Shown: positions 6,210 to 28,414, counted from the first letter of the stretch. The stretch is DNA of 64,000 nt from a virus (IMGVR_UViG_3300040801_001810:102194-166193); one strand, 5' to 3'. Program-made: numbers and translations. Notes: generated from the letters alone by a model not told the origin.

Positions 6210-7004
6210 TTAACCCACTAAGTCTTTGATTTTACCAAGCTTAGAAACAACGTCTCTAACCTTTTTACCACCCTCGGCTATCTGTACAAATTTTGCCATG
6301 TTTGGTAATTCTGGTATAGCAACTGCTCCAGTTGGAATAGTAGAAGGGATAAATCTTTGTAAGAAGTTATCTGCCATCCACTCTCGTTGGTGTTCTGAGG
6401 ACTCCCATCCAACACTTCCAGCAATATAGACTCCTTCTTCACCAAGAGCTATGGATCCACCAGCTGATTTAATTAAGATAGCCCCATCCGTATTTATAAA
6501 TATACCTACATTTTTATCGCCTAAATCCTCTTGACCTTCAGTAGCAGATTGTTGATTTTTAGCGTTACTACTAGTATAGTCCTTATTAGTAGGCGGGGTA
6601 AGAGCCATGGCTACCTTTTCTAAATCTAACATACTGATCTTACTAATCGAAAATGTTGACCCTCCACTATTAGCGTTAGTACTTGAAGATGACTGATTTA
6701 AAGGCAATACATATACAAACCCTAAAGGAAGATCTGCTAGTGTTCCTTCTTCATCAAGTATGCCTGGAATAAAACTAAGTCGCTCTTCATCTATACCAAA
6801 ATCTGATATAGCTTCATCATGTGTTGCAACAACTGCAACATGTCTTTTAGGGTGCGGAACTTCTGCTCCTCCTAAGTACTTGAAATCAAAGAACTTACCA
6901 TTAAATTCTATTCTAACTATTCTATGAAATTGATTATAGTAATTAGTAGCTGCAATTTTAGCACCAAACTGTTTAAACTGATATCTATTATCAGAATCGT
7001 ACAT
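6210..7004 (-). CDS. Baseplate central spike (gpV/gp45-like)
   Basis: 264 aa; OB-fold-like N-terminus, short beta-repeat GIFINTDGAILIKSAGGSIALGEEGVYI; position after the hub. Confidence 0.55.
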   Translation of the reverse strand: MYDSDNRYQFKQFGAKIAATNYYNQFHRIVRIEFNGKFFDFKYLGGAEVPHPKRHVAVVATHDEAISDFGIDEERLSFIPGILDEEGTLADLPLGFVYVLPLNQSSSSTNANSGGSTFSISKISMLDLEKVAMALTPPTNKDYTSSNAKNQQSATEGQEDLGDKNVGIFINTDGAILIKSAGGSIALGEEGVYIAGSVGWESSEHQREWMADNFLQRFIPSTIPTGAVAIPELPNMAKFVQIAEGGKKVRDVVSKLGKIKDLVG

Positions 7005-14176: not shown

Positions 14177-14359
14177 CTATTCCTTTAAGTTTCTTAAAGC
14201 AATTGGGCTTAGTGATAGAGGATCATCTACCTCAATGACATTAATCTTAGTTGGTTTTCCGTTTAACTTTGAGATTTCTCGTTCTAATAAACGTAAATAT
14301 TCTGAATAATCTTGGCCGTCATCGACATTGATTGATATATTTGCTTCAACTACACTCAC
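14177..14359 (-). CDS. Small hypothetical protein (60 aa)
   Basis: GTG start overlapping the TGA of the upstream gene (GTGA), AGGAG SD upstream. Confidence 0.6.
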   Translation of the reverse strand: MSVVEANISINVDDGQDYSEYLRLLEREISKLNGKPTKINVIEVDDPLSLSPIALRNLKE

Positions 14360-17300
14360 AGATCTGCTCTCCTATCTAATTGGGATGAACCAAATTGTGG
14401 TATGTAACTAGTATAGTTCGAATAGTTATTATTTGGAGGACCGAAGAACGCTTGTCTGTTTTGATTTACAGTACCTACTGTATTATCAATCATCCTAGAT
14501 ATAACACTAGATCTCTGTCTCTTATTGTTTCTATTGCTATTTAATCTAATAAATGCCTGTTTAGAGAATGAAGCATCAACCATATCAAGAGGAATATTTC
14601 TATTTAATTCTACTGAGGAGCTAATAGCATTATGCGAACCATCAATATCAACACCAAGATCAGTAAATGCATCTAATGGATTAGCTGAATTAGATAACTG
14701 ATTAGGTTTAAAGAAAGTGGCAGCCATATATATACCAGCAGCAATAGCCCCAACTTTCCCTCCCTTTTTAAAGAAGGATCTAGCATTAGGTGTATCCAGT
14801 TTAAATTTTTTAGATAACTGATCTCCTAACTCTGATACTGCTGATCTAGTAGGTGCTGGTACAGAGAATTTATTCTCTAACATGAAATCCTTCTCAGCAG
14901 CAGATATTATTATATCAGCTATATTTGCATTATCTCTAACTAGATCAATATTATCAAATGATCTTTTCATATCAAATAACTGAGATCCTCTTGGAGCGAT
15001 TTCTTCCATTTCTCTCATTATACCAATAGATTTTTTATAGTAAGATTGTCCTTCATCTGCTCCATACATATCAGTAAATAGATTTTTAAGCGAATTCTTA
15101 TCTTCTCTAGTAGAATTTTTTGGATCTAAGAAGACCTTAGCAGCAGAAGCAAGTCTTCCAAAATCAGCATTAGGATGCTTTGCCAAACTAATAAACGTCT
15201 GGGCAATACCAGCATAACCATGATTTAAGTTGCCCATTAGCGCTTTAGCAGCTACACTATCTTTTCCAATAAGTCCTGCTTGTAATAATTGTCTTGATCT
15301 AGTGTAAGCAACATTTGTCATTAGTCCTATTACATTCTTTGATACCGCAGTATGAGCAACTCTATCCATTTGATTACCAATATACTTTGCAGTAATAACA
15401 TTAGGATTGTGCAGCTGAATAGTCTTAATGTTTTCAGCAAATGATTGAAAGTCATTAGCAAACATTGTCATAGTTTTTTGGGAATTAATATCCATACTCT
15501 TAGTAATAAAATTACCTTGATCATCAAAGCCTCCCATTAAGACTCCATCTTTAGTTCCAGGAGTAATATCCATTAAGAACATCTTCTCTTTTAAACTATC
15601 TCTTAATGATTTAACTACGCCTTGTTTAGCAGAAACTACAGAGTCTAAAGCTTTTCCTAGTGATGCAGAATGTTCTGCACCATAACCCATTAGAGATTCA
15701 GCTGTCTTGAGACCTTTCATTACAAAATACGCAACATCACCATCAAAGTCAGCTCCAAACAACTTAGTATATTGAGCATGTACTTGAGCTTCATTAGCAT
15801 TCATTCCAAGGAACTCACCGACTTCTTGTGGAATTATATTTAACCGCATATCTAGTACAGCATCAGTTGCAGATTGTACGTTAGGATGACGAGTCATATA
15901 TCCATATAGATATTCTTCTCCTCTCATTATACTAGATATTTTACCAGCATTATCTGGTCCAAATACTCGAGCAAGATGTTCAGTAGCTTTAACTACATTA
16001 TTAGCTTTATTAATTTGCATTGGAAGCTCAAAATTTTTAAAGAACGCATCTGTTACATATACATCAGAAAGATTAGATTTAGATGTTAGTCTTTTAATTA
16101 ATTGATTTGCTTGTGTAACGCTTCCTTTAAACTGATCTCCAAAAGTAGCAAATCCTCCACGTCTTTGAATATCTAAAGCCTTTTCAATTATATCTGCCGC
16201 TCCTCTAATAGGTGCTTGAACTCCACGAGGAGCAAGCTCATTAGCTCTAGCATATACAGAAGAAGAATCCATTAAGAATCCTTGATTCATATAGTTTAGA
16301 TATTGTCTCTTTAGAAAACTCTCTGCTGTTCTTACATCAGTTTGTCCTTTACTACCAGATCTCATTTCAGATAGTACAGATTCATAATGTTTAGCTGCTT
16401 CAATAACTTTATACTGTTGTTTATTTCCTTGGCTTAAATATCCAATAGAAAGATCTTTACCATAAGGATTAAGTACATTGTATATATTTTGAGGAGACGT
16501 GTCAGCGTGCATTACTAGTTTACGTAATCTAACAACTTTATTAGTTTCATCTATGCTTTCAACTATTCCTTTACTTGGATCCTTAGCTGAATCATACATA
16601 GTCTTAAACATAGACATCATTTTATTCTCTTGCTGAATCGCCATCTGTGGATCAAGCTCTGAGTTCTTAAGCATGTCAGCTATATGAAATTCAAATGCTC
16701 CTCCAAGTTCTTTCTTAGCAGAATAAGCAAAGACGCCTTTATCCTTAGCCATTGCAGCCCATGACTGTACAGCAGACATTGAAACAAAGTTTTTATTATT
16801 TTCAAATGATTCGGCAAGTTTTGATGTTTGTAATTCATGAATGATTGACTTAACAGCTTTCTCTAAGTCTTCCCCACTTCGACCTTCTTCTGCAAGCATG
16901 GCAGAAACGTGCTGTATCATTTCAGCTTCAGCAGTATCACTATTAATAATTCGTCCAAGCTTATTAAGATCAAGTCTATTAACTCTATCTAATAGTTTAT
17001 TAATATCTTTTATATTAAGTTCCATATTAGAAGTAGAGACTGCTCTAGATAGCAACACATCTTTAAATCTATCCATGGTTCTTCTAGCAGATGCAAATCT
17101 TTTGTCTTTAAGGAATCGTCTACTTGTTTTTAAATCATCAATAGTAGAGCGAGATACATGACCAAAAGGAGTATCTATTAATGAAAGTAAACCCCCACGT
17201 AATTTTAAATCAGTTGGTTTAGGTTGTCTTCCCTTCATTATATTATAAATTGCTCCACGTTGTCTATGTCTGAACCCAGGAATAAAAGGAGAGTCGTCTC

Positions 17301-20300
17301 TATCCGTCCATTTCTGAATTGGTTCTAAGAACATAGGAATCTTAGCTCCTTCATCTATTCTTTTAATATCTGGAAGGAAGTATGTCTTAAGTGTTGGGGT
17401 CATACTTTCTTTTATATTAACTAAGTCGTCTCTATGAAAACTAGATAAGGCTCCTTTTGAATTGCTAAGTGTTGCATCTATATCTTTAGTTGAGTTCCTA
17501 ACTGTTTGATTAATCCAATCTTCAATATTCTTTCTACCAGATTTCATTACATTATCAGAACCAACTGCATCTGAGTCAGCCCACATTCCATACCAGTTCT
17601 GTGCTTTTTGTTTATCCCAAATTATTCCAGCATCAACCATATAACCATTAAGTTTCTCTATAGAAAGATCAATATTACCAATAAATTTCTTAGCAACAGC
17701 AAGTTCTTTTGGATCAGTTATATTCTTAAATTTAATATTAGTCTCTGGATTATGAATAATAACACCACGCTTCTTATCAAAGCTTGAATTAATTTCAGTA
17801 GATATCTTTTTGATTACCTTCTCAGCTCTAGTTTTCTCTGCTTGAGTGCCAGTCTCTGTTTGATCCAAAAGCTTGTCAAATACCTTTTCTATTAAGGCGT
17901 TCTTTTGTGCACCTACATATCCTTTTTCTATAAAGTCTGCTGTAGAAACATGCTCAGCACCACCCATAGCAATTCCAAGAGATAACCATTTATCTACTAC
18001 TCCAGTGCTCTTAGTAAGCAATGATCTATAGTTAAAAGTAACATGATTAAAATCTGAACCAGCTGCTGTAAATAATAGGTTGCCGTGAACTTTAATCTTA
18101 CCAGCTGTATCTCTATCTATCATGACGTTTCTTAATACACCATCTAGTTCAGCTTTAGTAGTAACAAAGCTTTTATCTCCTTGAGCCATAGTTAAACTTG
18201 TGCCTCTAGGAATATCAATAGTTAATCCTTTAGAATCCATATCTGCTTGAACGTCTTTTAGCGCAATATCCCAATGTGATTTTTTAACTGAACCGCCGTC
18301 CAGATCAGCTAGTTCCTTAACTCTTTTTCTAACTCTTCCCTCAAGATCTAGTACTCTTTTACTAAGATGAGGATCCGCAGATGTCCATTGAGCAGAAGTT
18401 AAATCAACATTTTTTTCGATATGAAATTGATGTCTATCAAATACTTTTTGAGAGAAGGCATTATATCCTTCTTGTCCTCTCCAAGAATTAAATACTGATA
18501 CGCTATCTGTCATGATATGATGAGAGAACTCATTCGTCATTGCGTCAGATTTAAGTTTCCATCCAGCGGCATCTATTTCGCCTTGAGAAATAAATGATGG
18601 TCTAAAATACTTTCTATGCATTGCTCTTTTTTCAAGGTCAGTTCTTCCTTTCATAGATTTCATGAATTGGCTGCTTACTCTATTCTTAATACCCATATAA
18701 AACTGATCCCATTGTTTAGTCATTGGGTTATCAGAGTTTGGGATCAAGTGGTTAGGAGAGAACATAGACATAGTTTGTTTAGCTATCTGTCCTTGACCTA
18801 GTAATGATGCAGATGCGAATTCTCCATGAATGGTATATCCTCGTTCTAGATACTTAGCCTCTTCAAAGCTTTCATCAAGACCCATTATTCGTTTACCATC
18901 TAAAAGGAACTTTTGTAGTTCACTAAGATTCTTATATGATTTTTCACCAGATTGAAACTTGTTAATTTCATCGATTAACATCACATTAGTAAATAAACTA
19001 TCAACAACAGGAGAAGCATGTGCTTGAGATAAGAATCCCTTTTGTGCCCAATCAGTAAGCATCTCGTCACCAATTATAATATTACCCTTACGTCTAAAAT
19101 GATCAATAGCTTTTCTTATCTGACCAGGTTTATCAATATTAATTGGATCGGTGCCTTGTCTACCCATCATTCTCATAATAACTTTATTAAGAGCAAGAGA
19201 TCCTTCTCCACCAAATCCTAACTTCTGATAGTATGCTATACTATGAACGTCTATAAATTTTAAATACTTTTGTAATTTAGCCCATGCCTTTGGTGCTTTA
19301 TTCTTTAGCATATGTAGATCAAATTGAGAACCATTCTTAGTAGTAAAGAATACTTTCTTATTGGCAGCTACTGCGGCTTCAACTTGTCTTAGAATAGATT
19401 CACCAATATGTTCAGCAAAATCCATATTATCTTTAAATTTAGGTGCTCCTCTAGATGTTCTAAAGTTCTCAGCTTGTCTTCTAATTTGTTGTCCCCAGGC
19501 TTCTCCTACTTCATCAGGAGTAGTAAGATGAGCAGATTTATCACCAAGTTCACGTCTTAGCCATGAAGCAGTATCTTCTGTCCATCCATACTTTTTCATT
19601 TGATAGTATCCATGATCAGATACAAATTCATCAGCTCCAGTATGAACTAATTTACCATTCTTAAATTCAGACGACACAACTCCTGCTTTAGTTAACTGAG
19701 TATATTCGTCTCGAGCCATCCACTCTGGACCAGGAAGATCTCTAGAGATACTTTCAAAGTCAAACGTAATATTAACTACGTCTTCTCTATTCTTAATAGC
19801 TGTAGCTAGTGTTCCAAGATTTTGCATTGACTCATGAGCATTACCTAATCTAAGTAACTGATTCTTAGTAAATTTACTTTCTGTAACAAGTCTACCTGCT
19901 TTGAACGAGTCTCTAATAGTGCCCTCAGCTAATGGGGAATCTTCTAGAAGATTATTCATTGAAAAATGTATTCTTCTAATAGCTTTATCAGGATTAATAG
20001 AAAATTCGTTTTCCATCATATTACTATCAAGAATATCATTTAGTGCTCTAATCATCTGTTGTGATTTATTTTCGATATCCTCATTTATTCTAAGATCTTT
20101 ACCAAGAGAATGTTTTTTGTTAAGACGTCTAATGGCGTCTCCTTCTGTCTTTAGATAGAAACCATCTAACATCTCTGTTACGCTTGGAGTTGATCCTGGA
20201 ATTCTACCATGTTGAGCAAGAGGAATCTCAGTTGAGAACCGCCCCTTCGTATTATGTTCAAATGAAACTTTAGCATAATACTTAGGATCAGTGGCGCTAC

Positions 20301-21408
20301 CTTTAGTTATAATTTCAAATCCAACATCTTTAATTTGAGTATCAGCCGCTCTTGTAGTCTTTAAATCATTTAGCTTATCGCTTAACTTCTTTAATCCAGC
20401 AGTATAATCAAATTGACTTAATAATCTAAATCTTTTATTATCAGGAACAAAAGCCACTCTATTTAATGAGCCTGATGTAATTTTATTATTATCTTGTGCT
20501 AGAAGATCAAACGCATTAACTCCTTTAACAGAATGTTTATTATAACCTTGACCAATTCTCTGTGAATATACCTTTTGCCTAGCAACTGAAAGATGTGTTG
20601 AATCAAACTCTTCGCCACCATATAAGAAGCTTCTTACATTTGTTTCCGTAAAAGTTTGAGTAGTAGGATTAGCATCATAAGCATTCTTAGCCATAGAATA
20701 AGAGGATTTCATTCTATTTAGTCTTCTTTGATAAAGATTAGCATAGGAAGAATCATATTCTAAATAATATTCATGTAAAGCTTTTAATCGAGTCTTATCA
20801 GAAGCAGGAGATTTAATAGAATGTAAAGTAGCTACGTCTTCTTCTCTAGCAGCAGACTCTCTCGCAAAGTGCTCGTATAATGTGCTTTCTCTGAGGGTAA
20901 ATAGAATGTCATCTCTATCAACAGTTACATCAACAGCTGGCTTAAGTGGATATCTGGATCCTTTAGGAGTTCTAACAGCTCCACGAGCAAATCCAAGATC
21001 CTCTTCTGTTCTAGATATAATTGAGTCTTCTGCTCTCTTAACATAATTAATATATGATACGTCTTTCATTTCAGCCATATCAAATTTAGTAGCAGTGTCC
21101 ATATCCAAAACATCATCCAAAGATCGTTGAGTTTCTTCATCAATATCAATACCAAAATAAGGTTGCTTAAGGGAAGCAGATTCGCTGATGATTCTTTCTC
21201 TTGAATCAAATTGTTTCATTGCTTCTCTAGAAACTATCTTATTTTTATATTGATCTAGGTACTTTAATGCCAATCTTCCAGTTGGGCCTTTAATCTTATA
21301 TGCACCAAAAGCCATACCAGTTAAGGCTCCAAGTTTCATAAAGGTATTAAATGTCCAGTGACCTTTATCAACATCTTCTTTTTTAAATGGATTATAAATA
21401 TCAGCCAT
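14356..21408 (-). CDS. Putative virion single-chain two-barrel DNA-dependent RNA polymerase with DEDDh exonuclease domain
   Basis: 2350 aa; TRHP (aa ~1840) and GADFDGD (A1886-D1891, nt 15736-15753); downstream VIGLMTN and QTFISLAKH; N-terminal DFE (550-552), NGSQFD (D697), IDVHSIA, AHASPVVD (H797, D803). Confidence 0.8.
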   Translation of the reverse strand: MADIYNPFKKEDVDKGHWTFNTFMKLGALTGMAFGAYKIKGPTGRLALKYLDQYKNKIVSREAMKQFDSRERIISESASLKQPYFGIDIDEETQRSLDDVLDMDTATKFDMAEMKDVSYINYVKRAEDSIISRTEEDLGFARGAVRTPKGSRYPLKPAVDVTVDRDDILFTLRESTLYEHFARESAAREEDVATLHSIKSPASDKTRLKALHEYYLEYDSSYANLYQRRLNRMKSSYSMAKNAYDANPTTQTFTETNVRSFLYGGEEFDSTHLSVARQKVYSQRIGQGYNKHSVKGVNAFDLLAQDNNKITSGSLNRVAFVPDNKRFRLLSQFDYTAGLKKLSDKLNDLKTTRAADTQIKDVGFEIITKGSATDPKYYAKVSFEHNTKGRFSTEIPLAQHGRIPGSTPSVTEMLDGFYLKTEGDAIRRLNKKHSLGKDLRINEDIENKSQQMIRALNDILDSNMMENEFSINPDKAIRRIHFSMNNLLEDSPLAEGTIRDSFKAGRLVTESKFTKNQLLRLGNAHESMQNLGTLATAIKNREDVVNITFDFESISRDLPGPEWMARDEYTQLTKAGVVSSEFKNGKLVHTGADEFVSDHGYYQMKKYGWTEDTASWLRRELGDKSAHLTTPDEVGEAWGQQIRRQAENFRTSRGAPKFKDNMDFAEHIGESILRQVEAAVAANKKVFFTTKNGSQFDLHMLKNKAPKAWAKLQKYLKFIDVHSIAYYQKLGFGGEGSLALNKVIMRMMGRQGTDPINIDKPGQIRKAIDHFRRKGNIIIGDEMLTDWAQKGFLSQAHASPVVDSLFTNVMLIDEINKFQSGEKSYKNLSELQKFLLDGKRIMGLDESFEEAKYLERGYTIHGEFASASLLGQGQIAKQTMSMFSPNHLIPNSDNPMTKQWDQFYMGIKNRVSSQFMKSMKGRTDLEKRAMHRKYFRPSFISQGEIDAAGWKLKSDAMTNEFSHHIMTDSVSVFNSWRGQEGYNAFSQKVFDRHQFHIEKNVDLTSAQWTSADPHLSKRVLDLEGRVRKRVKELADLDGGSVKKSHWDIALKDVQADMDSKGLTIDIPRGTSLTMAQGDKSFVTTKAELDGVLRNVMIDRDTAGKIKVHGNLLFTAAGSDFNHVTFNYRSLLTKSTGVVDKWLSLGIAMGGAEHVSTADFIEKGYVGAQKNALIEKVFDKLLDQTETGTQAEKTRAEKVIKKISTEINSSFDKKRGVIIHNPETNIKFKNITDPKELAVAKKFIGNIDLSIEKLNGYMVDAGIIWDKQKAQNWYGMWADSDAVGSDNVMKSGRKNIEDWINQTVRNSTKDIDATLSNSKGALSSFHRDDLVNIKESMTPTLKTYFLPDIKRIDEGAKIPMFLEPIQKWTDRDDSPFIPGFRHRQRGAIYNIMKGRQPKPTDLKLRGGLLSLIDTPFGHVSRSTIDDLKTSRRFLKDKRFASARRTMDRFKDVLLSRAVSTSNMELNIKDINKLLDRVNRLDLNKLGRIINSDTAEAEMIQHVSAMLAEEGRSGEDLEKAVKSIIHELQTSKLAESFENNKNFVSMSAVQSWAAMAKDKGVFAYSAKKELGGAFEFHIADMLKNSELDPQMAIQQENKMMSMFKTMYDSAKDPSKGIVESIDETNKVVRLRKLVMHADTSPQNIYNVLNPYGKDLSIGYLSQGNKQQYKVIEAAKHYESVLSEMRSGSKGQTDVRTAESFLKRQYLNYMNQGFLMDSSSVYARANELAPRGVQAPIRGAADIIEKALDIQRRGGFATFGDQFKGSVTQANQLIKRLTSKSNLSDVYVTDAFFKNFELPMQINKANNVVKATEHLARVFGPDNAGKISSIMRGEEYLYGYMTRHPNVQSATDAVLDMRLNIIPQEVGEFLGMNANEAQVHAQYTKLFGADFDGDVAYFVMKGLKTAESLMGYGAEHSASLGKALDSVVSAKQGVVKSLRDSLKEKMFLMDITPGTKDGVLMGGFDDQGNFITKSMDINSQKTMTMFANDFQSFAENIKTIQLHNPNVITAKYIGNQMDRVAHTAVSKNVIGLMTNVAYTRSRQLLQAGLIGKDSVAAKALMGNLNHGYAGIAQTFISLAKHPNADFGRLASAAKVFLDPKNSTREDKNSLKNLFTDMYGADEGQSYYKKSIGIMREMEEIAPRGSQLFDMKRSFDNIDLVRDNANIADIIISAAEKDFMLENKFSVPAPTRSAVSELGDQLSKKFKLDTPNARSFFKKGGKVGAIAAGIYMAATFFKPNQLSNSANPLDAFTDLGVDIDGSHNAISSSVELNRNIPLDMVDASFSKQAFIRLNSNRNNKRQRSSVISRMIDNTVGTVNQNRQAFFGPPNNNYSNYTSYIPQFGSSQLDRRADL

Positions 21409-24400
21409 TATAAATTAAACTTCTTTCTTACATCAAAGGCTCTAGATATAGTAAGAGATCTATCTCTTCTAATTGTTACATTAATAACATTTGCATCACT
21501 AGCTCCATTATTAATATAGACCATAGCGTTAGATTTAATGCCATTCTGTCTAAATAGATTATTTATTATCCCTCTAACGTGACCAGAACTTAAGTTCGGA
21601 GTTTCCATAGGAACTTCATTCATATCAGCTGCTTGTATCTCTCGATCAAATCCTTGCATTCTAAGCATTTGTTCATTCCAACCAAGCCCAAATTCATGTG
21701 CATCAAAACCTTGTTCCTGTATAGTTTTTAATTCGATATCTTCTAACTGGACGCCTGGGTCAAGAACGCTTCTATTAAATACATGTCTTCTATCAACCGA
21801 TATTCCTTTACTTGTATTCTCTACAAAAGCACCAGTTGCTTCTTTTTGATCACTAGCATTCCATTGTTTCTTAAGAGCGGCCCCTAAGTCAGAAGGAAGT
21901 ACACTAAGAATTTCTTTTCGTTCTCTTGGATTTCTAGTATTTAAGAATGATTCTATATATGGTTTCTCAGTAAAAGGAGTTGCTCTAAATAGATCAGCTA
22001 CATTTCCTTCGCCTTGATTAATAGAAGTTAGGGTTGATCTTCTTGCATCCATAAACTTCTTCTGAGTTAATCCCGATGATAATTGTGTCAACATATCAGC
22101 TTTAGCATATTTAGCTGCGTCAAAGTATGAAACTATATCACGCTTTTCTTGAATACTATTTGGAATATATTTTGAACCAGTCGCAAATCTATAAAGTCCA
22201 TGAACTGTTCCATATGCAGTACCTAACCCAGCACCTATAACTGTACCTAATGGTCCACCTAATACAAAACCTCCTGTACCATAAGAAATGCTTCCTGCTA
22301 GGGGGTCAGTCTTTGAAGCGAGTCCTCTTGAGTATGGTTCTACAAATGAGCTAATTGGTTCATCCCATGGCTTGTATTCTTTACCATATAATCTAGTCAT
22401 CTTATAATGTTCTATTGGATCTTTCATTCCAAATAGTTTATTAGTAAGCAAGAAATTAGTATTAGTAAAATTCTCCCAAGCCCAACCAATTGCTCTTTCC
22501 TTTAAACTATAATCCGCTCCAGCTTTAATATCTTCATTAATAGATTGTATATTCTTTTGAGTATCAGGAGTTAATAGTTTCCCTTTGAATCTATTTGGAT
22601 ATAATTCGTATTTACGTAATCTAGCCTGTCTTTTCTTAAGGGCGAATTTATATCTATTTACTTCTTTTTCAGTAAGGACACCAAATTTGATTTGCTTCTC
22701 TACAAGAGTTTTAACTTCTTTATACTCTTTAGAAGTAGGAGCAACGTCAGCTAGAATATCAAGTCTGTCTATCCAGGAATAACTATATCCATAATTATCT
22801 TCGACGCCCTCATCTAGCATTGATTGAGCTGTTTGTCTCGCTTTTTGTAGCTTTGCTAAATCTTTTTCCCATCTATTCCTACTATAATTGACTTCAAATA
22901 ATTTAGTCATCGTAGGATTATCTCTATTTATATATAAGATATTACCCTTATTAAGTCCAAGTTCTTTCAGATAAAAGTTAATCTGGCCAACGTGCTGATA
23001 CTTAGGTCCTTCAGCTAGTTTCTGAAATCCTGCATCATTGATAGATTTAATTTCTAGTGCTCTACGACCTTTACCTCCTTTACCATCTCTAATAACAGCA
23101 TCTACGTGACCAGTAATGTCGTTCTTAATATCAAATACTAGAGCTTCTGCCTGAATTAATAATCCTTCAGCTGCTAGTGAGTCTTGAATAGCAGCGTGCA
23201 TTTCAGTTCCTTCTTCCATTATATCAAACGATTCTTTTAATGTAGGAGTTATCATACCTGTAAAGTACTCTAGTATCTGTGGTTCATTAGCTCCCAACAT
23301 AGATGCTCTAGCAGGCATTGTTCTTCTTAAAGTTGTATGTGTCTTAGAGTAAGCTTCTCCAGGTAATCTAAGTTCTCCTCTTAGAATCTTTTCATAAGGA
23401 TCACCAGAAAGGAATTGAGCTGGTAACCAGTTAGGCATTAAGTTAGGAATAGGATTAATTCCGTATTGCTTATACTCAGGTTTGTCTATTAATCTTCTGA
23501 TAGGCTCAGTTAAGAATCCCATACCACCAAGATTCTTATCATAAAAACTTCTACTCATAGAAGCAATTCTACCAGCTGTCTGTAAAGTAGGCATTACAGC
23601 AGGTTCACCAAATACTCTTTCAGTAATACTTCTACCTAGGAATCCTTTTAGTCCAGCAAATTGCGAAACGTCATATAAGAAATCTTCTGCTGCTGTCTCA
23701 GACCAATTCTTATTTGGCATTATATTTACAGTCCCACCAGCCGTAGCTATTCCTGTTGTGCTTCTAATCTGAGACTGATTCCTCATTAAACCAAGACCTT
23801 CCCCTAAAGTAGGAGGTCTTATTGCGAATGGATATGGATCACCTGCTCCACCAGCTTTAATTGCATCTGAAGTTAAGAACTCTTGATGCATAGTCTTCTG
23901 AGGTTTAATTATTCTACCAATAGTTGCTGATAAAGGTTTACCAATGATTGGCATCTCATCGAATATGCCGCCAGTTACTGGATATGGTCTGCTAAAGAAG
24001 TGCTTACGCTCCATATAATAAGGGTCAACTAAGTCGCCTACATTAAATCCTATAAATGGCAAAGGCTCATGTATTAATTTTCGAAAAGCGGATCCATATT
24101 TTGTATCAGTCTCTTGCCATCTTGACTTAGCTCTTACATACCAGTTTGGAGACCAACCTATAACTTTAGATCCTTCCCACGGAGTTCCACCAAGTAACCA
24201 TGTTGGTGATTTCATCATTGGGACTTCTGCTCTACCAGCATAAATTTCTGTAAGTTCCTGATGACTCTTAGTCATATCTGGAATATAAGGAGAGGCCAGT
24301 CTATTAACTATAGCTCCAGTTAATACTCCCTTAGCTACTCCAAGTGCTCCTCTACCAGTAATCATACTAGAAAGGCCACCAACTATCATACCAGGAAGAG

Positions 24401-27400
24401 TGCTTTCAGAACCAGGAGCGAGACCATGCATATATTTCATCATGCCTGTAACACCTGTCACATCTGAAGCTCTTGCTAATCCTAGTCTACCTTTAGCAAC
24501 GACATCAGCACCAAAACCAGTTAAACCTTCATCAAAAGAAGTATCATCAAATAGAGGATTAGTTGCAATTAAAGTGTCAGCTACTTTGTATGAACCAAAT
24601 GCTAAAGCTGTGGTAGACATTATACCACCAATAAATTTAGCGCCTCCCATTAATCCGTGATGTGAAATATATCTTTTCTTAAATGGCAACCACTCTGATA
24701 TCATATCAGTAGTTGAAGTCATTGTCTTTCCAAGAACATCACTCATTGCTCTTAAGCCAGTAGGAGCAGAGAAGTAAGGAGATGTACCACCAGATAAATC
24801 AGATGGATCGAATTCTGCATCTTTAAGAATTCCCCCCATAATTCTATTCTGTTCAAAGTCAATCTTTGGATTTTTAATTCTATTATTAGAAACAAAATCT
24901 ATTATCTCATTTCCAACATCCCACTGTTCTTCTTTGGCTCTATGTCTAACCTTTTTTAATACGCTAGAAAAAGTGTCAGACGACTTAGCTATGTTTCTAA
25001 CAAGACCGTCATCTCTAAACACAGATAGCTTAGCGTGTAACTTAAGAGCTTTAGCTTCTTTATTGGTAATAATTCCTTGTTCTAATAATCCTGGGACCGC
25101 TGCTATTAATGGGTGTGCTTCTCCTGGTCTAGGATTAGTCAAATAAGATTTATTAAATATATCATCTATATAATTAGTTCTAGCTACATCCATGGATGTC
25201 ATAGATGAAAGTGGACCTAGTCTTTTAACAACTTCGTGTGTCTGCGATTCTTTTGGAAATGCTTTGACTTCTTCTACTGCTCTTTTAAAACCAGTTCTTT
25301 TAATCCAGTCACCAGCTCTCCAATCAAGACTATCTAATTTATCTACTAGCGCACGATCATCAAAAGCTACGTTTAAAATATCATCTGCTAGTGTTTTATC
25401 GTGGACAAAATGAGCTATCTGTTGAAGCGCATTCTTATTTTGTAGAACTCTAGATTGTACTTGAGATGTATGAGTTAATAGATTATCTAATAATGGTAAA
25501 TGTTTTTCTCCATCTAAAATATTACCATTGCCAAATATATCAGCGGATAGTTGTTGGTAATGTTTATTTCCACTTAATCTAGCATCAATATTTCCAAGCA
25601 TTTCATTTAGCTTGGAAGGTAGTCCAATATTTCTTCTATCTAGAAAGTGTAAGAATGTATTTTTAGGACTATCATAATAGTCAACTTGTTCTCTGATCTT
25701 ATTAAAGTCAGATCCAGCGTCCATTGCTGCATCACGTAATCTATTAATTGCTAAGCTTTTAAGTTCATAGCTCTTATCTCTTGAAGCTCGAGGAGCACGA
25801 TATAGTTTTCTTTTAGAATCAACTTCTCTAATACCTTCACCATCAAAAATAGCCCACTTACCATTAGCATACATGAAAGAAGCGTCTTTACCACGAGCCA
25901 ATTCTCCAATAGATCCATTACCAAATTGAAATTCAGGCTTTCTATCAAAGAACTCAAATGAAGGAGCTTCAGATAAATACTTGCCAGCTCCTGTTAGTTC
26001 AGATAAAGTAAAATTCATAGATGATAGTGGAATATGGAATCTCTTATTAGCTATCCATGAGGCCCCTCTTCTCATAACATGAATAGGATCAAATGCTCCA
26101 AGATCTACACCAGCACCCTTAGCTTTACCACCACGCCAATCTCTATAGATATTATTTCCAACACGCATGTTAAGAACATTACCCATTAGAGTTTCTGCGG
26201 TTTTATTACCATATCTTTCAGATAGTGTTCCTTGTGTTCTTCTTATCCAGTCTTCATTAATAACATCTTTATTACGTAATGGTTCTAAGAAACCAAATAC
26301 TTTATTAATAAATGATTTTTGATTAGCTTGTCTCTTAAGCTCAGGAATAAAATGATCTGATAATCCATTAGAAGCTAGTGATGCTTGGCTTCCTACATTT
26401 GACATAGAAGCTACTTTATCAAGTGCTTCTATAGCTCTAAGACCAGAGTATTTAATAGTAGAAGATGGAGTAACTCTATCTTTAGCACCCATCTCTTTAA
26501 CATTTTTAAGAGCAGCATTAATAGTACTAAATGCTTTTTTAGTACGTTGGCCAAAGGACCCCTTAGATCTCCATGCTTCTTTTGCAGCGTCAGGTAATGT
26601 ATATAACGCAGATTGTACACTTCTGTACTTATCTCTAATACTTTTTCCTGCTTCTAAGAAGGATAATCCCTTCTTAACCATATCAGAAGCAACCTTAGTT
26701 TCCTGCTTACTTCTTAGTTCTCCAACGACATCTTGTTTAAGGTATTTCTCATATCTAGCTCCTCTAGGTATACCAGGGGAGTTAGGAGCCATCCTAGCTG
26801 CCAGAGACCTTCCCATAGCTCCACCAAAGGCTTTGGATGCACTACGCATACCAATACTGCCTATAGCTCCAAGTCCTCTCTGTGCGCCCCCAAAGGCCAA
26901 TCCAGCAATAGAGTCATTAACCATCCATCTACCAAAGTTAGATATCTGACCAGGAACGTCGTACCATGATTTTTTCTCGAGACCCATATCTTTAGAGATA
27001 CCAAGCATTGAGTCTACTGCGTAAGCTACTCCCATACCAGATAATACGTTTTGTTTCCAAACGCTACCAACTGAGGCTATAAATGTCTTTGGGTTTTTGA
27101 ATGCTGAAGTAAATCTAGCAGCGCCATAACCAGGCTTACCTTTCATACCAGCAAGAGACTGCATTCTAGTGGTATGTGCTTGCCCAATAGATGTTTTACT
27201 AATGGCCCTCTTAATATCAGACTTAGCTTGATTTACTGTACTAGTTACACTATACGCCCTCTGGGCAATTTGTTTTCTAATACCAGATGGGCGGTTCATC
27301 CATTTCTTAACTATTCCCCCACCAGATTTAGAAAGTCTATGGGTAATAGCTCCACCAATTAAGTTTAATCCACCAATAAGTGCTATAGACTTAATAGCCT

Positions 27401-27491
27401 GGGCAGCACCCTGCATTGGATTACCCTCATTCCTTACATTATCATAAGGATTATAATAGGAGTCGTTACTATCGGGATTATAAATTGCCAT
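21408..27491 (-). CDS. Tape-measure-like protein with embedded PD-(D/E)XK nuclease domain
   Basis: 2027 aa; directly follows the tail chaperones; basic, Gly/Ala-rich, several glycine-zipper hydrophobic segments; GTEMHAAIQ..GHVD..LEIKS..QINFY nuclease motifs at aa ~1425-1545. Confidence 0.7.
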   Translation of the reverse strand: MAIYNPDSNDSYYNPYDNVRNEGNPMQGAAQAIKSIALIGGLNLIGGAITHRLSKSGGGIVKKWMNRPSGIRKQIAQRAYSVTSTVNQAKSDIKRAISKTSIGQAHTTRMQSLAGMKGKPGYGAARFTSAFKNPKTFIASVGSVWKQNVLSGMGVAYAVDSMLGISKDMGLEKKSWYDVPGQISNFGRWMVNDSIAGLAFGGAQRGLGAIGSIGMRSASKAFGGAMGRSLAARMAPNSPGIPRGARYEKYLKQDVVGELRSKQETKVASDMVKKGLSFLEAGKSIRDKYRSVQSALYTLPDAAKEAWRSKGSFGQRTKKAFSTINAALKNVKEMGAKDRVTPSSTIKYSGLRAIEALDKVASMSNVGSQASLASNGLSDHFIPELKRQANQKSFINKVFGFLEPLRNKDVINEDWIRRTQGTLSERYGNKTAETLMGNVLNMRVGNNIYRDWRGGKAKGAGVDLGAFDPIHVMRRGASWIANKRFHIPLSSMNFTLSELTGAGKYLSEAPSFEFFDRKPEFQFGNGSIGELARGKDASFMYANGKWAIFDGEGIREVDSKRKLYRAPRASRDKSYELKSLAINRLRDAAMDAGSDFNKIREQVDYYDSPKNTFLHFLDRRNIGLPSKLNEMLGNIDARLSGNKHYQQLSADIFGNGNILDGEKHLPLLDNLLTHTSQVQSRVLQNKNALQQIAHFVHDKTLADDILNVAFDDRALVDKLDSLDWRAGDWIKRTGFKRAVEEVKAFPKESQTHEVVKRLGPLSSMTSMDVARTNYIDDIFNKSYLTNPRPGEAHPLIAAVPGLLEQGIITNKEAKALKLHAKLSVFRDDGLVRNIAKSSDTFSSVLKKVRHRAKEEQWDVGNEIIDFVSNNRIKNPKIDFEQNRIMGGILKDAEFDPSDLSGGTSPYFSAPTGLRAMSDVLGKTMTSTTDMISEWLPFKKRYISHHGLMGGAKFIGGIMSTTALAFGSYKVADTLIATNPLFDDTSFDEGLTGFGADVVAKGRLGLARASDVTGVTGMMKYMHGLAPGSESTLPGMIVGGLSSMITGRGALGVAKGVLTGAIVNRLASPYIPDMTKSHQELTEIYAGRAEVPMMKSPTWLLGGTPWEGSKVIGWSPNWYVRAKSRWQETDTKYGSAFRKLIHEPLPFIGFNVGDLVDPYYMERKHFFSRPYPVTGGIFDEMPIIGKPLSATIGRIIKPQKTMHQEFLTSDAIKAGGAGDPYPFAIRPPTLGEGLGLMRNQSQIRSTTGIATAGGTVNIMPNKNWSETAAEDFLYDVSQFAGLKGFLGRSITERVFGEPAVMPTLQTAGRIASMSRSFYDKNLGGMGFLTEPIRRLIDKPEYKQYGINPIPNLMPNWLPAQFLSGDPYEKILRGELRLPGEAYSKTHTTLRRTMPARASMLGANEPQILEYFTGMITPTLKESFDIMEEGTEMHAAIQDSLAAEGLLIQAEALVFDIKNDITGHVDAVIRDGKGGKGRRALEIKSINDAGFQKLAEGPKYQHVGQINFYLKELGLNKGNILYINRDNPTMTKLFEVNYSRNRWEKDLAKLQKARQTAQSMLDEGVEDNYGYSYSWIDRLDILADVAPTSKEYKEVKTLVEKQIKFGVLTEKEVNRYKFALKKRQARLRKYELYPNRFKGKLLTPDTQKNIQSINEDIKAGADYSLKERAIGWAWENFTNTNFLLTNKLFGMKDPIEHYKMTRLYGKEYKPWDEPISSFVEPYSRGLASKTDPLAGSISYGTGGFVLGGPLGTVIGAGLGTAYGTVHGLYRFATGSKYIPNSIQEKRDIVSYFDAAKYAKADMLTQLSSGLTQKKFMDARRSTLTSINQGEGNVADLFRATPFTEKPYIESFLNTRNPRERKEILSVLPSDLGAALKKQWNASDQKEATGAFVENTSKGISVDRRHVFNRSVLDPGVQLEDIELKTIQEQGFDAHEFGLGWNEQMLRMQGFDREIQAADMNEVPMETPNLSSGHVRGIINNLFRQNGIKSNAMVYINNGASDANVINVTIRRDRSLTISRAFDVRKKFNL

Positions 27492-28042
27492 TATGATCCT
27501 AGATGTTGGTTAAGTTCATCCATTTTTTCTTGTAGGCTTTTGCCATCATCTGGAAATTGTGATGGATTTACTAATGTTCTACCTTGTTTCTTGAAACCAC
27601 CAAATTTAAATAGTGGTCTTTTTAGTATTAATTCAGCTAAACACATTAATTCAAAAATATCTCTGGGAGTTAATTTTAGTAAGTCAGTTATAGATTGACC
27701 AGGAAAAGCTTCCAATATATCTTTAAGTCCGATATATAAATAATGTTCCTTAAGTTTTTCTCTACTCTCAGAAACAAATATCTCTAGTAAAGTTATATCA
27801 TTCACTTCTTTATTACTATAAGAAATAGCCTGTTCGCCAATCATAACTAATGTTGGAAAGGGAACTTTATTAGCTTCCATATTATAAACAGATATTTTGC
27901 CAGCTATCTCATTTTTAATAATTTCATTTTTAATATTATTTAGAAACTCAAGTTCTAATATAGTGAGGTCTCTAAAGTATACATCTACTGTTTTCTTATC
28001 TTTTTTAAAGGTTGTTTTATACAACTTGGTATTTTTTGTCAT
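27491..28042 (-). CDS. Tail assembly chaperone 2 (putative)
   Basis: Lies between TAC1 and the tape-like gene; VYFRDLTILE motif; start likely ATG 28042 given GGAG at 28051-28048. Confidence 0.55.
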   Translation of the reverse strand: MTKNTKLYKTTFKKDKKTVDVYFRDLTILELEFLNNIKNEIIKNEIAGKISVYNMEANKVPFPTLVMIGEQAISYSNKEVNDITLLEIFVSESREKLKEHYLYIGLKDILEAFPGQSITDLLKLTPRDIFELMCLAELILKRPLFKFGGFKKQGRTLVNPSQFPDDGKSLQEKMDELNQHLGS

Positions 28043-28056
28043 GATCACTCCAAATT

Positions 28057-28086
28057 AAAAAAGGACAGGGATTCATAGCCCTGTCC
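28057..28086 (-). terminator. Intrinsic terminator after tail chaperone 1
   Basis: Minus strand GGACAGGG-CTATGAAT-CCCTGTCC followed by TTTTTT. Confidence 0.8.
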
Positions 28087-28114
28087 CCTTAAACTAACCA
28101 CTCGTGGATTGTGA

Positions 28115-28414
28115 TTAAAGTTCTTCGATTTCAGTCAATTCAAATCCTGAAACAACCATAACTCTTTCCGAAATAACAGCAGATATTCCTGCATTTTTCT
28201 TTAGTTCTGCTTCGTCATATTCACTGACTACGCAAGATTTAAATACTTCAATGTCATTATCAAAAGTAGTTGGATTCATTGCTTGCTTCATTTGTAGGTC
28301 TAGATATAATTCTCTATTCATATTATGAAAATAATAATCTTTTCCAGCTACAGTTGCTCGGTAAATTTTTCCGTGCTCTTCTTTCCAGGTCGTAATTTGT
28401 TCTTGTGATACCAT
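28115..28414 (-). CDS. Tail assembly chaperone 1
   Basis: 99 aa; ITTWKEEHGKIY..YYF..NRE and GIS.VISERVMVVSGF pattern of myophage tail chaperones; follows the tube paralogues. Confidence 0.7.
   Translation of the reverse strand: MVSQEQITTWKEEHGKIYRATVAGKDYYFHNMNRELYLDLQMKQAMNPTTFDNDIEVFKSCVVSEYDEAELKKNAGISAVISERVMVVSGFELTEIEEL

What the first reader, a model, noticed from the sequence alone, without database searches (positions are those of the whole stretch)
14177..27491. System hypothesis: co-ejected takeover cassette (tape + nuclease, RNAP + exonuclease) translationally coupled into the tail operon
Seen: TAC2, the 2027 aa gene, the 2350 aa gene and a 60 aa ORF are joined by TAATG/GTGA overlaps downstream of one terminator. 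Both giants are basic, carry Gly/Ala hydrophobic hairpins, share an N-terminal motif, and together hold three catalytic nucleic-acid enzyme domains. Inference: roughly equimolar low-copy proteins that pass through the tail, form a membrane channel, and deliver polymerase plus nucleases before any phage gene expression. This combination is not one I recognise from characterised phages.
Basis: inference. Interest (0 to 1): 0.8.

Follow-up and report, generated by a model that had tools for sequence, protein, structure and literature searches.

The report
Tail-operon RNA polymerase with nucleases
An uncultured 230-kb contractile-tailed phage encodes, between its tail chaperones and its baseplate hub, a giant nuclease-bearing protein and a giant protein that combines a cell-type RNA polymerase with a 3'-5' exonuclease; they are probably carried in the virion and injected to start viral transcription, a strategy published so far for one Thermus phage.

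Summary
On the minus strand, a 183-aa putative chaperone, a 2027-aa gene (A), a 2350-aa gene (B) and a conserved 60-aa gene are joined by TAATG, TAATG and GTGA overlaps. They lie downstream of a strong hairpin with a T-run, and the coupling continues into the 2389-aa baseplate hub (C).

All three enzyme domains are real:
- **A** carries a Cas4/RecB-type PD-(D/E)xK nuclease.
- **B, residues 540-810,** has a DEDDh exonuclease fold close to RNase T.
- **B, residues 1080-2210,** is a single-chain two-barrel RNA polymerase. Its nearest solved folds are QDE-1 and the Thermus phage RNAPs, and the DFDGD motif is invariant.

The order A-B-60aa-C is kept in 13 of 13 loci.

Delivery through the tail is inferred, not shown. 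The module matches that of Bacillus phage 0305phi8-36, where the A homologue and the B-slot protein are virion proteins by mass spectrometry. B is the only RNA polymerase candidate I found in the complete genome.

Two points need correction. A published precedent exists: P23-45 gp96, a tape-measure-fused virion RNAP. Which giant is the tail ruler is open.

I rate this a new variant of a known kind. Notes of this scan flag the same stretch and tape-measure-embedded RNAPs in at least 12 other genomes.

The parts
28059..28090 (-). Hairpin with T-run (terminator or attenuator-like) between the 99-aa ORF and the coupled block
   Evidence: 12-bp stem, 6 GC pairs, T-run. Sequence read. Function is inferred.
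28115..28414 (-). 99-aa conserved acidic protein, putative first tail chaperone
   Evidence: Conserved in L001-L004, pI 4.6-4.9. The role is positional, by analogy with 0305phi8-36 gp143 (PMC2147016). hhalign to the N-terminal half of the 183-aa protein is weak (E 0.0019, probability 14%).
27491..28042 (-). 183-aa protein ('TAC2'), putative second tail chaperone; its stop overlaps the start of A (TAATG)
   Evidence: No Pfam or PHROG match. The role is positional only.
21408..27491 (-). A, 2027 aa: basic giant protein with Gly/Ala-rich hydrophobic stretches, a conserved core (aa 1080-1400) and an inserted PD-(D/E)xK (Cas4/RecB-like) nuclease at aa 1423-1556
   Evidence: phrog_1706 at 1.2e-15 and phrog_1990 at 4.7e-9. 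The motifs GHxDAI, ALEIK and QxNFY are kept in 5 of 5 aligned orthologues and match a pattern in 8 of 8 IMG/VR loci. Homologous to the virion protein gp145 of 0305phi8-36.
22824..23225 (-). PD-(D/E)xK nuclease domain of A (aa 1423-1556)
   Evidence: The domain is absent from the A homologues of Acinetobacter phage ME3 and Moorella phage MTATph1, so it is an insert in a conserved scaffold.
14356..21408 (-). B, 2350 aa: N-terminal hydrophobic helix with KGP, DEDDh exonuclease, single-chain two-barrel RNA polymerase, conserved C-terminal module
18979..19791 (-). DEDDh 3'-5' exonuclease domain of B (aa about 540-810; D550, E552, D697, H797, D803)
   Evidence: D550, E552, H797 and D803 (and D720) are invariant and D697 nearly so (at least 90%) in 49 sequences. 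AF2 model pLDDT 87. The best Foldseek matches are RNase T, followed by Orn, TREX2, DnaQ epsilon, ExoI and DexA.
14779..18171 (-). Two-barrel RNA polymerase module of B (aa 1080-2210; K1162/K1169, R1840-x-P, D1887-F-D-G-D1891, TN 2031-2032, KH 2077-2078)
   Evidence: AF2 pLDDT 86.7, pTM 0.83. Foldseek gave 437 PDB matches at E<=1e-3, and all 50 rows listed are RNAP largest subunits. VIA-align: QDE-1 Z 11.7, Thermus phage nvRNAPs Z 11.2-11.3, P23-45 gp96 Z 8.0, E. coli beta' Z 9.6. The DxDxD aspartates are invariant in 48 sequences.
14356..14823 (-). C-terminal module of B (aa about 2195-2350), the part that many of the weaker family matches align to best; contains a short Gly/Ala hydrophobic helix
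   Evidence: mean column identity 40%, against 22% for the polymerase module.
14177..14359 (-). 60-aa acidic protein, GTG start overlapping the stop of B (GTGA); conserved ...VDDPLSLSPI... motif
   Evidence: Found by HMM in 8 of 8 IMG/VR loci. Function unknown.
7004..14173 (-). C, 2389 aa: acidic, enlarged T4 gp27-like baseplate hub with strong membrane-like hairpins (aa 1000-1044 and 2224-2242)
   Evidence: phrog_20474 at 2.7e-42. tblastn to the 0305phi8-36 gp147 hub. gp147 contains a T4 gp27 domain (PMC2147016). Hydropathy.

Best explanation
The stretch is the low-copy inner part of the tail operon of a complete 230-kb jumbo myovirus that is distantly related to Bacillus phage 0305phi8-36.

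Gene order: after the sheath, the tube paralogues and a 99-aa chaperone-like gene, a hairpin with a T-run precedes a translationally coupled block of five genes:
- a 183-aa chaperone-like protein;
- A, a giant basic protein with an inserted Cas4/RecB-type nuclease;
- B, a giant protein with a DEDDh exonuclease followed by a single-chain two-barrel RNA polymerase of the QDE-1 / Thermus-phage type;
- a 60-aa protein;
- C, the gp27-like hub.

Shown:
- The folds and the conservation of catalytic residues in all three enzyme domains.
- The gene overlaps.
- The invariant gene order in 13 loci.
- Homology of A and C to proteins of 0305phi8-36; A's homologue there is a virion protein by mass spectrometry.

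Inferred:
- A and B are built into the tail (lumen or hub region) with the help of the two chaperone-like proteins.
- They are expelled on sheath contraction.
- B then transcribes a small set of early genes from the entering DNA. A GC-rich promoter-like motif in front of plus-strand genes elsewhere in the genome is the candidate target.
- The two nucleases act on DNA or RNA ends at the entry site, either by resecting or opening the template, or by attacking host nucleic acid.

Which of A or B sets tail length is open.
For: RNA polymerase:
- The AF2 model of aa 1080-2210 has pLDDT 86.7 and pTM 0.83.
- Foldseek found 437 PDB matches at E<=1e-3, and all 50 rows listed are RNAP largest subunits.
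- VIA-align gave QDE-1 Z 11.7, P74-26 gp62 and the 'Phage P32' gp64 RNAP (8f72) Z 11.2-11.3, Pol IV Z 11.2, E. coli beta' Z 9.6 and P23-45 gp96 Z 8.0. Of the chains compared, 231 reached Z>=8, and all 50 entries listed are RNA polymerases.
- D1887, D1889 and D1891 are invariant. K1162, R1840-x-P, TN and KH are nearly so across 48-50 homologues that fall to 14% identity.

Exonuclease:
- Model pLDDT is 87, and the best Foldseek matches are RNase T, followed by Orn, TREX2, DnaQ and others.
- Four DEDDh residues (D550, E552, H797, D803) are invariant and D697 is nearly so in 49 sequences.

Nuclease in A:
- PHROG Cas4 families match at 1e-15, and the motifs are conserved.

Coupling and synteny:
-.
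- The A-to-B junction overlaps by 1, 8 or 11 nt, or is 2 nt apart, in 12 of 13 loci. In the thirteenth the start call is ambiguous.

Virion context:
- The layout chaperones, gp145, gp146, gp147 is the same in 0305phi8-36. There gp145 (the A homologue, 4e-52) and gp146 (B's slot) are annotated as found in virions by mass spectrometry.
- B-slot proteins of cultured relatives also carry a DEDDh exonuclease. MTATph1 CDS0027 matches Pfam RNase_T at 5.4e-5, and gp146 shows the motifs.

Need for a packaged enzyme:
- No Pfam RNAP family matched the complete genome. The T7-like search is uninformative, because that family rang in none of the control genomes.
- B is the only plausible DxDxD candidate among ORFs of 300 aa or more.
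- B is encoded among late structural genes.
- A GC-rich motif, GCTGCGCTGGC, occurs 5 times exactly and once nearly, only on the plus strand at genome positions 178.9-188.5 kb. Five of these six copies lie 23-49 nt upstream of a ribosome-binding site and ATG.

Precedent:
- P23-45 gp96, PMC10770324.
Against: - There is no direct evidence that B is in the virion. B shows no detectable sequence similarity to 0305phi8-36 gp146 (hhalign and HMM), so that link rests on position, size and exonuclease motifs.
- About 1,700 residues of B are predicted as compact globular domains. As folded trimers these would not fit in a tail-tube lumen, so their place in the particle is unclear. The same problem is unsolved for P23-45.
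- B's hydrophobic segments are weak.
- The link between the promoter-like motif and B is circumstantial.
- A divergent second polymerase in the genome cannot be excluded by motif and Pfam searches.
- The terminator call is a consensus match only.
Confidence: 0.6

Rival explanations
1. B is itself the tail tape measure, a ruler with a built-in polymerase exactly as in P23-45 gp96. A is not the tape but a separate internal tail or baseplate protein, a 'pilot' protein with a nuclease.
For: - In 0305phi8-36 the tape-measure role was assigned to gp146, the gene in B's slot, because its length fits the tail. The chaperones were noted to lie one gene away from it (PMC2147016).
- Only the extreme C-terminus of that protein is conserved between relatives. 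In the same way, B's C-terminal 150 residues are its most conserved part.
- P23-45 shows that a ruler can carry a two-barrel RNAP.
Against: - Residues 480-2210 of B are predicted as compact domains, not an extended helical ruler.
- A lies directly after the chaperones, has the multiple Gly/Ala hydrophobic stretches typical of tape measures, and has a long, poorly conserved N-terminal half.
- Neither protein matches a tape-measure family.
Confidence: 0.35
2. B is a non-virion polymerase. It is made late with the tail proteins and is used inside the producing cell, for late transcription or for RNA priming, and is not packaged.
For: - No virion data exist for this clade.
- Two-barrel enzymes of the QDE-1 type can use several kinds of template (PMC9508822, title and abstract as listed).
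- According to Iyer et al., 0305phi8-36 has a YonO-like RNAP (ABS83659.1), an accession different from those of its tail-module genes gp142-gp148 (ABS83700-ABS83706) (PMC7824862).
Against: - B overlaps A by one base and lies between a homologue of a virion protein and the hub in 13 of 13 loci.
- It has the size, the terminal hydrophobic helices and the basic charge of ejected proteins.
- An enzyme first made with the tail genes could not serve early transcription unless it is carried into the next cell.
- No other polymerase was found.
Confidence: 0.1
3. The enzyme domains serve DNA entry and defence rather than transcription. The nucleases degrade host or competitor DNA, or process the phage genome ends, while the polymerase module mainly acts as a DNA-pulling motor or as a structural relic.
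For: - Transcription-driven genome internalisation is known for T7 and N4 (general knowledge).
- Nucleases in ejected proteins could attack host DNA.
- The exonuclease, not the polymerase, is the element shared with the B-slot proteins of cultured relatives.
Against: - The catalytic triad and other active-site residues are invariant or nearly so at 14% overall identity. That argues for catalysis, not a relic.
- Pulling DNA by transcription is still transcription.
Confidence: 0.1

Closest known systems
Thermus phage P23-45 gp96 (also P74-26, G20c, TSP4): tape-measure-fused virion RNA polymerase (Chaban et al. 2024, PMC10770324; PDB 8H2M, 8H2N)
   Same: - A single-chain two-barrel RNAP with a DFDGD motif, encoded in the tail module within or next to the tape-measure slot, in a giant protein with membrane-like segments.
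- The proposed role is transcription of the first genes while DNA enters.
- The folds match (Z 8.0 for gp96; Z 11.2-11.3 for the sister non-virion enzymes).
   Different: - No sequence similarity.
- Contractile-tailed jumbo phage here, against a siphovirus there.
- The polymerase lies in the C-terminal half of a 2350-aa protein, not at the N-terminus of a 5002-aa ruler.
- A DEDDh exonuclease is fused upstream of it.
- The neighbouring giant protein carries a PD-(D/E)xK nuclease.
- No paralogous non-virion RNAP was found in the genome.
- Virion location and activity are untested here.
Bacillus phage 0305phi8-36 tail module gp143-gp147 (Hardies et al. 2007, PMC2147016) and relatives (KLEB27-3, WH1, Edson, Moorella MTATph1, Acinetobacter ME3)
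   Same: - The same order: sheath, tube paralogues, two chaperone-like genes, giant A, giant B-slot protein, giant gp27-like hub, then baseplate genes.
- A is homologous to gp145 and C to gp147.
- The B-slot proteins carry DEDDh exonuclease motifs.
   Different: - gp146 has no DxDxD motif and no detectable similarity to B.
- 0305phi8-36 is reported to have a YonO-like RNAP under another accession (PMC7824862).
- The nuclease insert of A is missing in ME3 and MTATph1.
- No 60-aa gene is annotated between gp146 and gp147.
Virion RNA polymerase of crAss-like phages (phi14:2 gp66), as cited in PMC10770324
   Same: A single-chain two-barrel RNAP embedded in a giant protein of about 2,200 aa that is packaged and ejected, and that is encoded beside other giant genes in the structural region.
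   Different: - Podovirus-like particle.
- I know of no fused exonuclease there; this is from memory and was not tested here.
- It did not appear among the listed structural matches, so its closeness is untested.
Coliphage N4 gp50 virion RNA polymerase
   Same: A giant (about 3,500 aa) packaged and ejected polymerase that transcribes early genes from a few special promoters (general knowledge; cited in PMC10770324).
   Different: Its catalytic domain is T7-like, not two-barrel. It is a head-packaged protein of a short-tailed phage.
Neurospora QDE-1 and plant RDR2 (RNAi polymerases)
   Same: The best structural matches to the catalytic core (Z 11.7 and 10.7). B falls in the 'phage, plasmid and RNAi' clade of two-barrel enzymes described in PMC10770324.
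   Different: These are eukaryotic cellular enzymes with no virion or tail context. Only about 300 core residues could be aligned, at about 10-12% identity.

Membership tests
Two-barrel (double-psi beta-barrel) RNA polymerases | Metal-binding DxDxD loop in the beta'-like barrel | tested here: met
   D1887-F-D-G-D1891. The three aspartates are invariant in 48 aligned homologues and lie in the barrel that matches isolated DPBB domains (model 649-841).
Two-barrel (double-psi beta-barrel) RNA polymerases | A second (beta-like) barrel supplying two basic residues to the active site | tested here: inconclusive
   K1162 and K1169 are nearly invariant. The model aligns with QDE-1 and the Thermus phage RNAPs from residue 7-36 to about 1100, which spans both barrels. 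I could not measure distances in the model, so their placement at the active site is not verified.
Two-barrel (double-psi beta-barrel) RNA polymerases | Overall fold match to solved RNAP catalytic subunits | tested here: met
   Foldseek gave 437 matches at E<=1e-3. With VIA-align, 231 chains reached Z>=8. All rows listed by either search are RNA polymerases.
Two-barrel (double-psi beta-barrel) RNA polymerases | Template-dependent RNA synthesis | not testable with these tools
   Needs an in-vitro primer-extension assay, as done for gp96 in PMC10770324.
Virion (packaged, ejected) RNA polymerases | Protein present in purified virions | not testable with these tools
   Indirect support only: the position in the tail operon, and the mass-spectrometry annotation of 0305phi8-36 gp145 and gp146.
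Virion (packaged, ejected) RNA polymerases | Early transcription independent of host RNAP, from dedicated promoters | tested here: inconclusive
   A GC-rich motif specific to the genome sits upstream of plus-strand genes, and no other phage RNAP was found.
Tape measure proteins | Gene directly downstream of the tail chaperone pair and upstream of the hub | tested here: met
   A and B together fill this slot. Position alone cannot tell which of the two is the ruler.
Tape measure proteins | Match to a tape-measure family, or an extended helical ruler whose length scales with the tail | tested here: inconclusive
   Neither A nor B gave a tape-measure hit in Pfam or PHROGs. B 480-2210 is predicted to be globular. 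Tail length is unknown.
DEDDh (DnaQ / RNase T) 3'-5' exonucleases | ExoI DxE, ExoII D and ExoIII Hx4-5D residues on an RNase H-like fold | tested here: met
   D550, E552, H797 and D803 are invariant and D697 nearly so (at least 90%) in 49 sequences. The best Foldseek matches are RNase T, with TM-score up to 0.58 by target. Pfam itself is weak (RNase_H_2 in 4 members, RNase_T in 1). H-to-D spacing is one residue longer than usual.
PD-(D/E)xK nucleases of the Cas4/RecB type | D, (D/E)xK and QxxxY motifs; Cas4 proper also has a four-cysteine Fe-S cluster | tested here: met
   The nuclease core matches phrog_1706 and phrog_1990, and GHVDAV, LEIK and QINFY are conserved. The Cas4 cysteine cluster is not present in aa 1420-1560 as read, so it is RecB/Cas4-like and not Cas4 proper.

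The most novel reading that the evidence does not exclude
A whole lineage of contractile-tailed jumbo phages (about 60 sequence clusters, all uncultured) carries its only RNA polymerase in the tail, fused to a 3'-5' exonuclease and coupled one-to-one with a second injected protein bearing a RecB/Cas4-type nuclease. Together they would form a self-contained 'open the end and transcribe' machine. The nucleases would resect or nick the first DNA to enter, or trim the RNA 3' end, so that a QDE-1-like polymerase can start on single-stranded template without any host factor. This would be the first exonuclease-equipped two-barrel RNAP and the first tail-delivered RNAP in a myovirus.
Probability: 0.3. 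Interest if true: 0.8.

Novelty: new variant of a known kind. Interest (0 to 1): 0.65.

Why it matters
Only one phage group (P23-45 and its kin) has been shown to deliver an RNA polymerase as part of its tail. If B is tail-delivered, the strategy also exists in contractile-tailed jumbo phages, built from an unrelated protein family.

It would add two things not described for any two-barrel polymerase in the papers I could search:
- a fused DEDDh exonuclease;
- an obligate nuclease-bearing partner.

It would also name the missing polymerase for the early-promoter-like motif of this phage. And it would reopen the annotation of the three giant tail genes of the 0305phi8-36 group, whose B-slot 'tape measure' carries exonuclease motifs.

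Practically, the family offers a compact, probably factor-independent RNA polymerase with a built-in exonuclease for biochemical study.

Tried and rejected
- **Cultured phages.** tblastn of B and megablast of the whole stretch against 50,697 phage records found no match. B has no close cultured relative.
- **Sequence searches for B.** The profile of full-length B against PDB sequences found nothing. Pfam and PHROGs on B found nothing meaningful. The polymerase became visible only by structure.
- **Exonuclease by sequence.** Its profile found nothing relevant in PDB sequences and only weak Pfam hits. The fold settled it.
- **B against the cultured B-slot proteins.** hhalign and HMM comparisons of B (whole, exonuclease part, C-terminal module) with 0305phi8-36 gp146, ME3 gp036 and MTATph1 CDS0027 gave no significant similarity. 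A profile search of those three genomes with the polymerase module found nothing. This is uninformative, because no positive control was included.
- **Fused forms.** A search among proteins of 4114-5000 aa found none. This is weak evidence only.
- **Complex prediction.** B's C-terminal module with the 60-aa protein gave no verdict (score 0.01). It says nothing either way.
- **ESM Atlas.** A look-up of the conserved core of A (aa 1060-1420) gave no usable hit. That region remains unexplained.
- **Chaperone-like pair.** BLASTP between the 99-aa and 183-aa proteins found nothing, and hhalign was weak. Their G/GT-like relationship is unproven.
- **The search for related loci.** The C-terminal module worked.
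- **Mis-set frame.** The ATG is at 28042.

Full report
**Setting.**
The window is positions 102,194-166,193 of a complete virus record of 230,193 bp with direct terminal repeats. Its G+C content is about 31-42% in 2-kb windows. All long genes of the window lie on the minus strand. Family searches place the finding inside a contractile-tail operon:
- sheath at 33138-35900 (phrog tail sheath, 1.5e-41);
- three tube-like paralogues (32353-33084, 31215-32294, and the N-terminus of 28429-31203);
- a 99-aa and a 183-aa protein;
- three giant genes of 2027 aa (A), 2350 aa (B) and 2389 aa (C), with a 60-aa gene between B and C;
- a 264-aa gene, a gp25-like 175-aa gene, and a Baseplate_J gene (Pfam 2e-15).

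**Checking the observation.**
- The 60-aa stop is followed after 3 nt by the ATG of C, so the coupled block continues into the hub gene.
- A 12-bp hairpin with a T-run lies at 28090-28059, in the gap before the 183-aa gene.
- A and B are basic, with pI 9.55 and 9.13. C and the small proteins are acidic.
- A has four conserved Gly/Ala-rich, moderately hydrophobic stretches.
- B has only a weak N-terminal helix (followed by a conserved KGP) and a weak C-terminal helix. The strongest membrane-like hairpin is in C.
- The N-terminal Y(N/D)P motif is universal in the 5 A orthologues read from their start, but it is present in only 16 of 50 B orthologues.

**What B is.**
- *No family match.* B has no Pfam or PHROG family and no sequence match in the PDB.
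- *Family size.* Homology searches found 8 close proteins. They also found 61 cluster representatives at E<=0.001 among 1.84 billion proteins, nearly all 2,230-2,490 aa long. None comes from a cultured phage.
- *Conserved residues.* Across 50 full-length members, down to about 14% identity, the conserved positions form two sets. One is D550, E552, N692-G693, D697, D720, H797 and D803. The other is K1162, G1166, K1169, R1840-x-P1842, D1887-x-D1889-x-D1891, T2031-N2032 and K2077-H2078.
- *Polymerase module.* An AlphaFold model of residues 1080-2210 is confident (pLDDT 86.7, pTM 0.83). Foldseek returns 437 PDB matches at E<=1e-3, and all 50 rows listed are largest subunits of multisubunit RNA polymerases.
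- *Closest folds.* VIA-align ranks QDE-1 first (Z 11.7, about 300 residues). Next come the non-virion RNAPs of Thermus phages (8f72 and 8f5m, Z 11.2-11.3), Pol IV (11.2), RDR2 (10.7), E. coli beta' (9.6) and the tape-measure-fused gp96 of P23-45 (8.0). Of the chains compared, 231 reached Z>=8.
- *Conclusion on the polymerase.* B therefore contains a single-chain two-barrel RNA polymerase of the 'phage, plasmid and RNAi' clade defined in PMC10770324. The order is beta-like, then beta'-like.
- *Exonuclease module.* A second model, residues 480-900, has pLDDT 87. Its best matches are RNase T, then oligoribonuclease, TREX2, DnaQ epsilon, ExoI and T4 DexA. Together with the conserved DEDDh residues (four invariant, D697 nearly so), this shows a 3'-5' exonuclease domain.
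- *Rest of B.* The last 150 residues are the part that many of the weaker family matches align to best. Residues 1-480 and 810-1080 remain uncharacterised.

**What A, C and the small gene are.**
- A matches Cas4-type PHROG families at residues 1423-1556 (1.2e-15). The motifs GHxDAI, ALEIK and QxNFY are kept in all orthologues. No cysteine cluster is present.
- The best-conserved part of A is a core of unknown function at residues 1080-1400, followed by the nuclease. In one relative, a LAGLIDADG intein is inserted in the RPYP/TGG motif of this core.
- A is homologous to gp145 of Bacillus phage 0305phi8-36 (BLASTP 4e-52). It also matches proteins of phages KLEB27-3, WH1, Edson, MTATph1 and ME3. 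The nuclease insert is present in gp145 but absent in ME3 and MTATph1.
- C matches the gp147 hub of 0305phi8-36, which contains a T4 gp27 domain (PMC2147016).
- The 60-aa protein is strongly conserved. Its function is unknown.

**Conservation of the set.**
In four loci recovered through B homologues at 35% to about 14% identity, and in eight IMG/VR loci recovered through B's C-terminal module, the order is always the same. It runs A with its nuclease motif, B with DxDxD, a 56-65-aa protein, then C. Counting the window, that is 13 of 13. The A-to-B junction overlaps by 1, 8 or 11 nt, or is 2 nt apart, in 12 of 13 loci.

**Is it virion-borne?**
This is inferred. Four lines of evidence point that way:
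- *Matching module in a studied phage.* The tail module of 0305phi8-36 has the same layout. In its record, gp145 (A's homologue) and gp146 (B's slot, 2537 aa, 'hypothetical tape measure protein') are annotated as found in virions by mass spectrometry.
- *A shared exonuclease in the B slot.* B and gp146 show no detectable sequence similarity. But gp146 has ExoI, ExoII and ExoIII motifs at 1222, 1441 and 1685. The B-slot protein of Moorella phage MTATph1 matches Pfam RNase_T at 5.4e-5. An exonuclease-bearing giant in this slot therefore seems ancestral. The polymerase module is detectable only in the uncultured clade. ME3 gp036 has a GGDHDQDQ motif that I could not test.
- *No other polymerase.* B is the only plausible polymerase in the genome. 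Pfam Rpb1 and Rpb2 families do not match, although both ring in all 14 control genomes. The search for the T7-type family found nothing but is uninformative, because that family rang in no control. No other ORF of 300 aa or more has a convincing DxDxD motif.
- *A candidate promoter.* The GC-rich 11-mer GCTGCGCTGGC occurs five times exactly and once nearly, only on the plus strand at genome positions 178.9-188.5 kb. Five of the six copies lie 23-49 nt upstream of a ribosome-binding site and ATG. A polymerase that is made with late tail genes and needed at early promoters has to travel in the particle.

**Comparison with what is known.**
- The published parallel is P23-45 gp96, a 5,002-aa tape measure whose N-terminal part is a DFDGD two-barrel RNAP. 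It is present in virions and transcribes pre-early genes (PMC10770324).
- The present case differs in several ways:
  - a different protein family;
  - a contractile tail and a jumbo genome;
  - the polymerase at a different place in the chain;
  - a fused exonuclease;
  - a nuclease-bearing partner gene;
  - no detectable second RNAP.
- For 0305phi8-36 the tape-measure role was given to the B-slot gene, on length grounds alone.
- My searches of the paper library found no description of this family. The supplement of PMC10770324 that surveys viral two-barrel RNAPs does not name 0305phi8-36 or ME3.
- Notes from this scan report tape-measure-embedded two-barrel RNAPs in at least 12 other genomes, some also with nucleases. 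I did not test those.

**Verdict.**
- The 'co-ejected takeover' mechanism is a reasonable but untested inference, with one published precedent.
- It is a new variant of a known kind.
- Confidence that B is a catalytically competent RNAP is about 0.9.
- Confidence that it is virion-delivered is about 0.7.
- Confidence that A and B form a channel, or are equimolar, is not better than 0.4.

Noticed in passing
genome positions 178956, 179952, 182848, 183183, 184442, 188502 (outside the window, plus strand): The GC-rich motif GCTGCGCTGGC (one variant, ACTGCACTGGC) occurs only on the plus strand. Five of the six copies lie 23-49 nt upstream of a ribosome-binding site and ATG. It is a candidate promoter class for the phage polymerase.
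   Followed up: partly
L003:1303-10011 (A orthologue, 2902 aa): A LAGLIDADG-type intein is inserted exactly in the conserved RPYP/TGG motif of A's core. This marks the core of unknown function as an important site.
   Followed up: partly
window 28429-31203 (924 aa); L001:1-2889; L003:1-333: The third tube-like paralogue is a long fusion protein. Its orthologues carry weak lysozyme/SLT domain hits, and in one case a LAGLIDADG hit. It is possibly a tube-tip protein with a cell-wall hydrolase.
   Followed up: no
L006:11173-15984 (Acinetobacter phage ME3 gp036, 1603 aa): The B-slot protein of a cultured relative has GGDHDQDQ at residue 1217, which resembles the DxDxD context of the B family.
   Followed up: partly
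L005:16624-24237 (0305phi8-36 gp146) and L007:10513-14442 (MTATph1 CDS0027): The 'hypothetical tape measure' of 0305phi8-36 carries DEDDh exonuclease motifs. The Moorella phage B-slot protein matches Pfam RNase_T, and a transposase gene follows it.
   Followed up: partly
L002:17411-17434, L014:10442-10467, L016:10391-10415, L017:10376-10416: Where B and the 60-aa gene do not overlap, the short spacer contains a shared (C)TATACTATA sequence. Its meaning is unknown.
   Followed up: no
L014:10645-11321: A 677-nt insertion lies between the 60-aa gene and C. It encodes a Cys-rich, HNH-like small ORF and is probably a homing endonuclease (read by eye only).
   Followed up: no
window 7004-14173 (C): The hub protein C is acidic (pI 5.9) and has the strongest membrane-like hairpin of the three giants (aa 1000-1044) plus a second at 2224-2242. 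If a channel is formed, C is a better candidate than B.
   Followed up: partly
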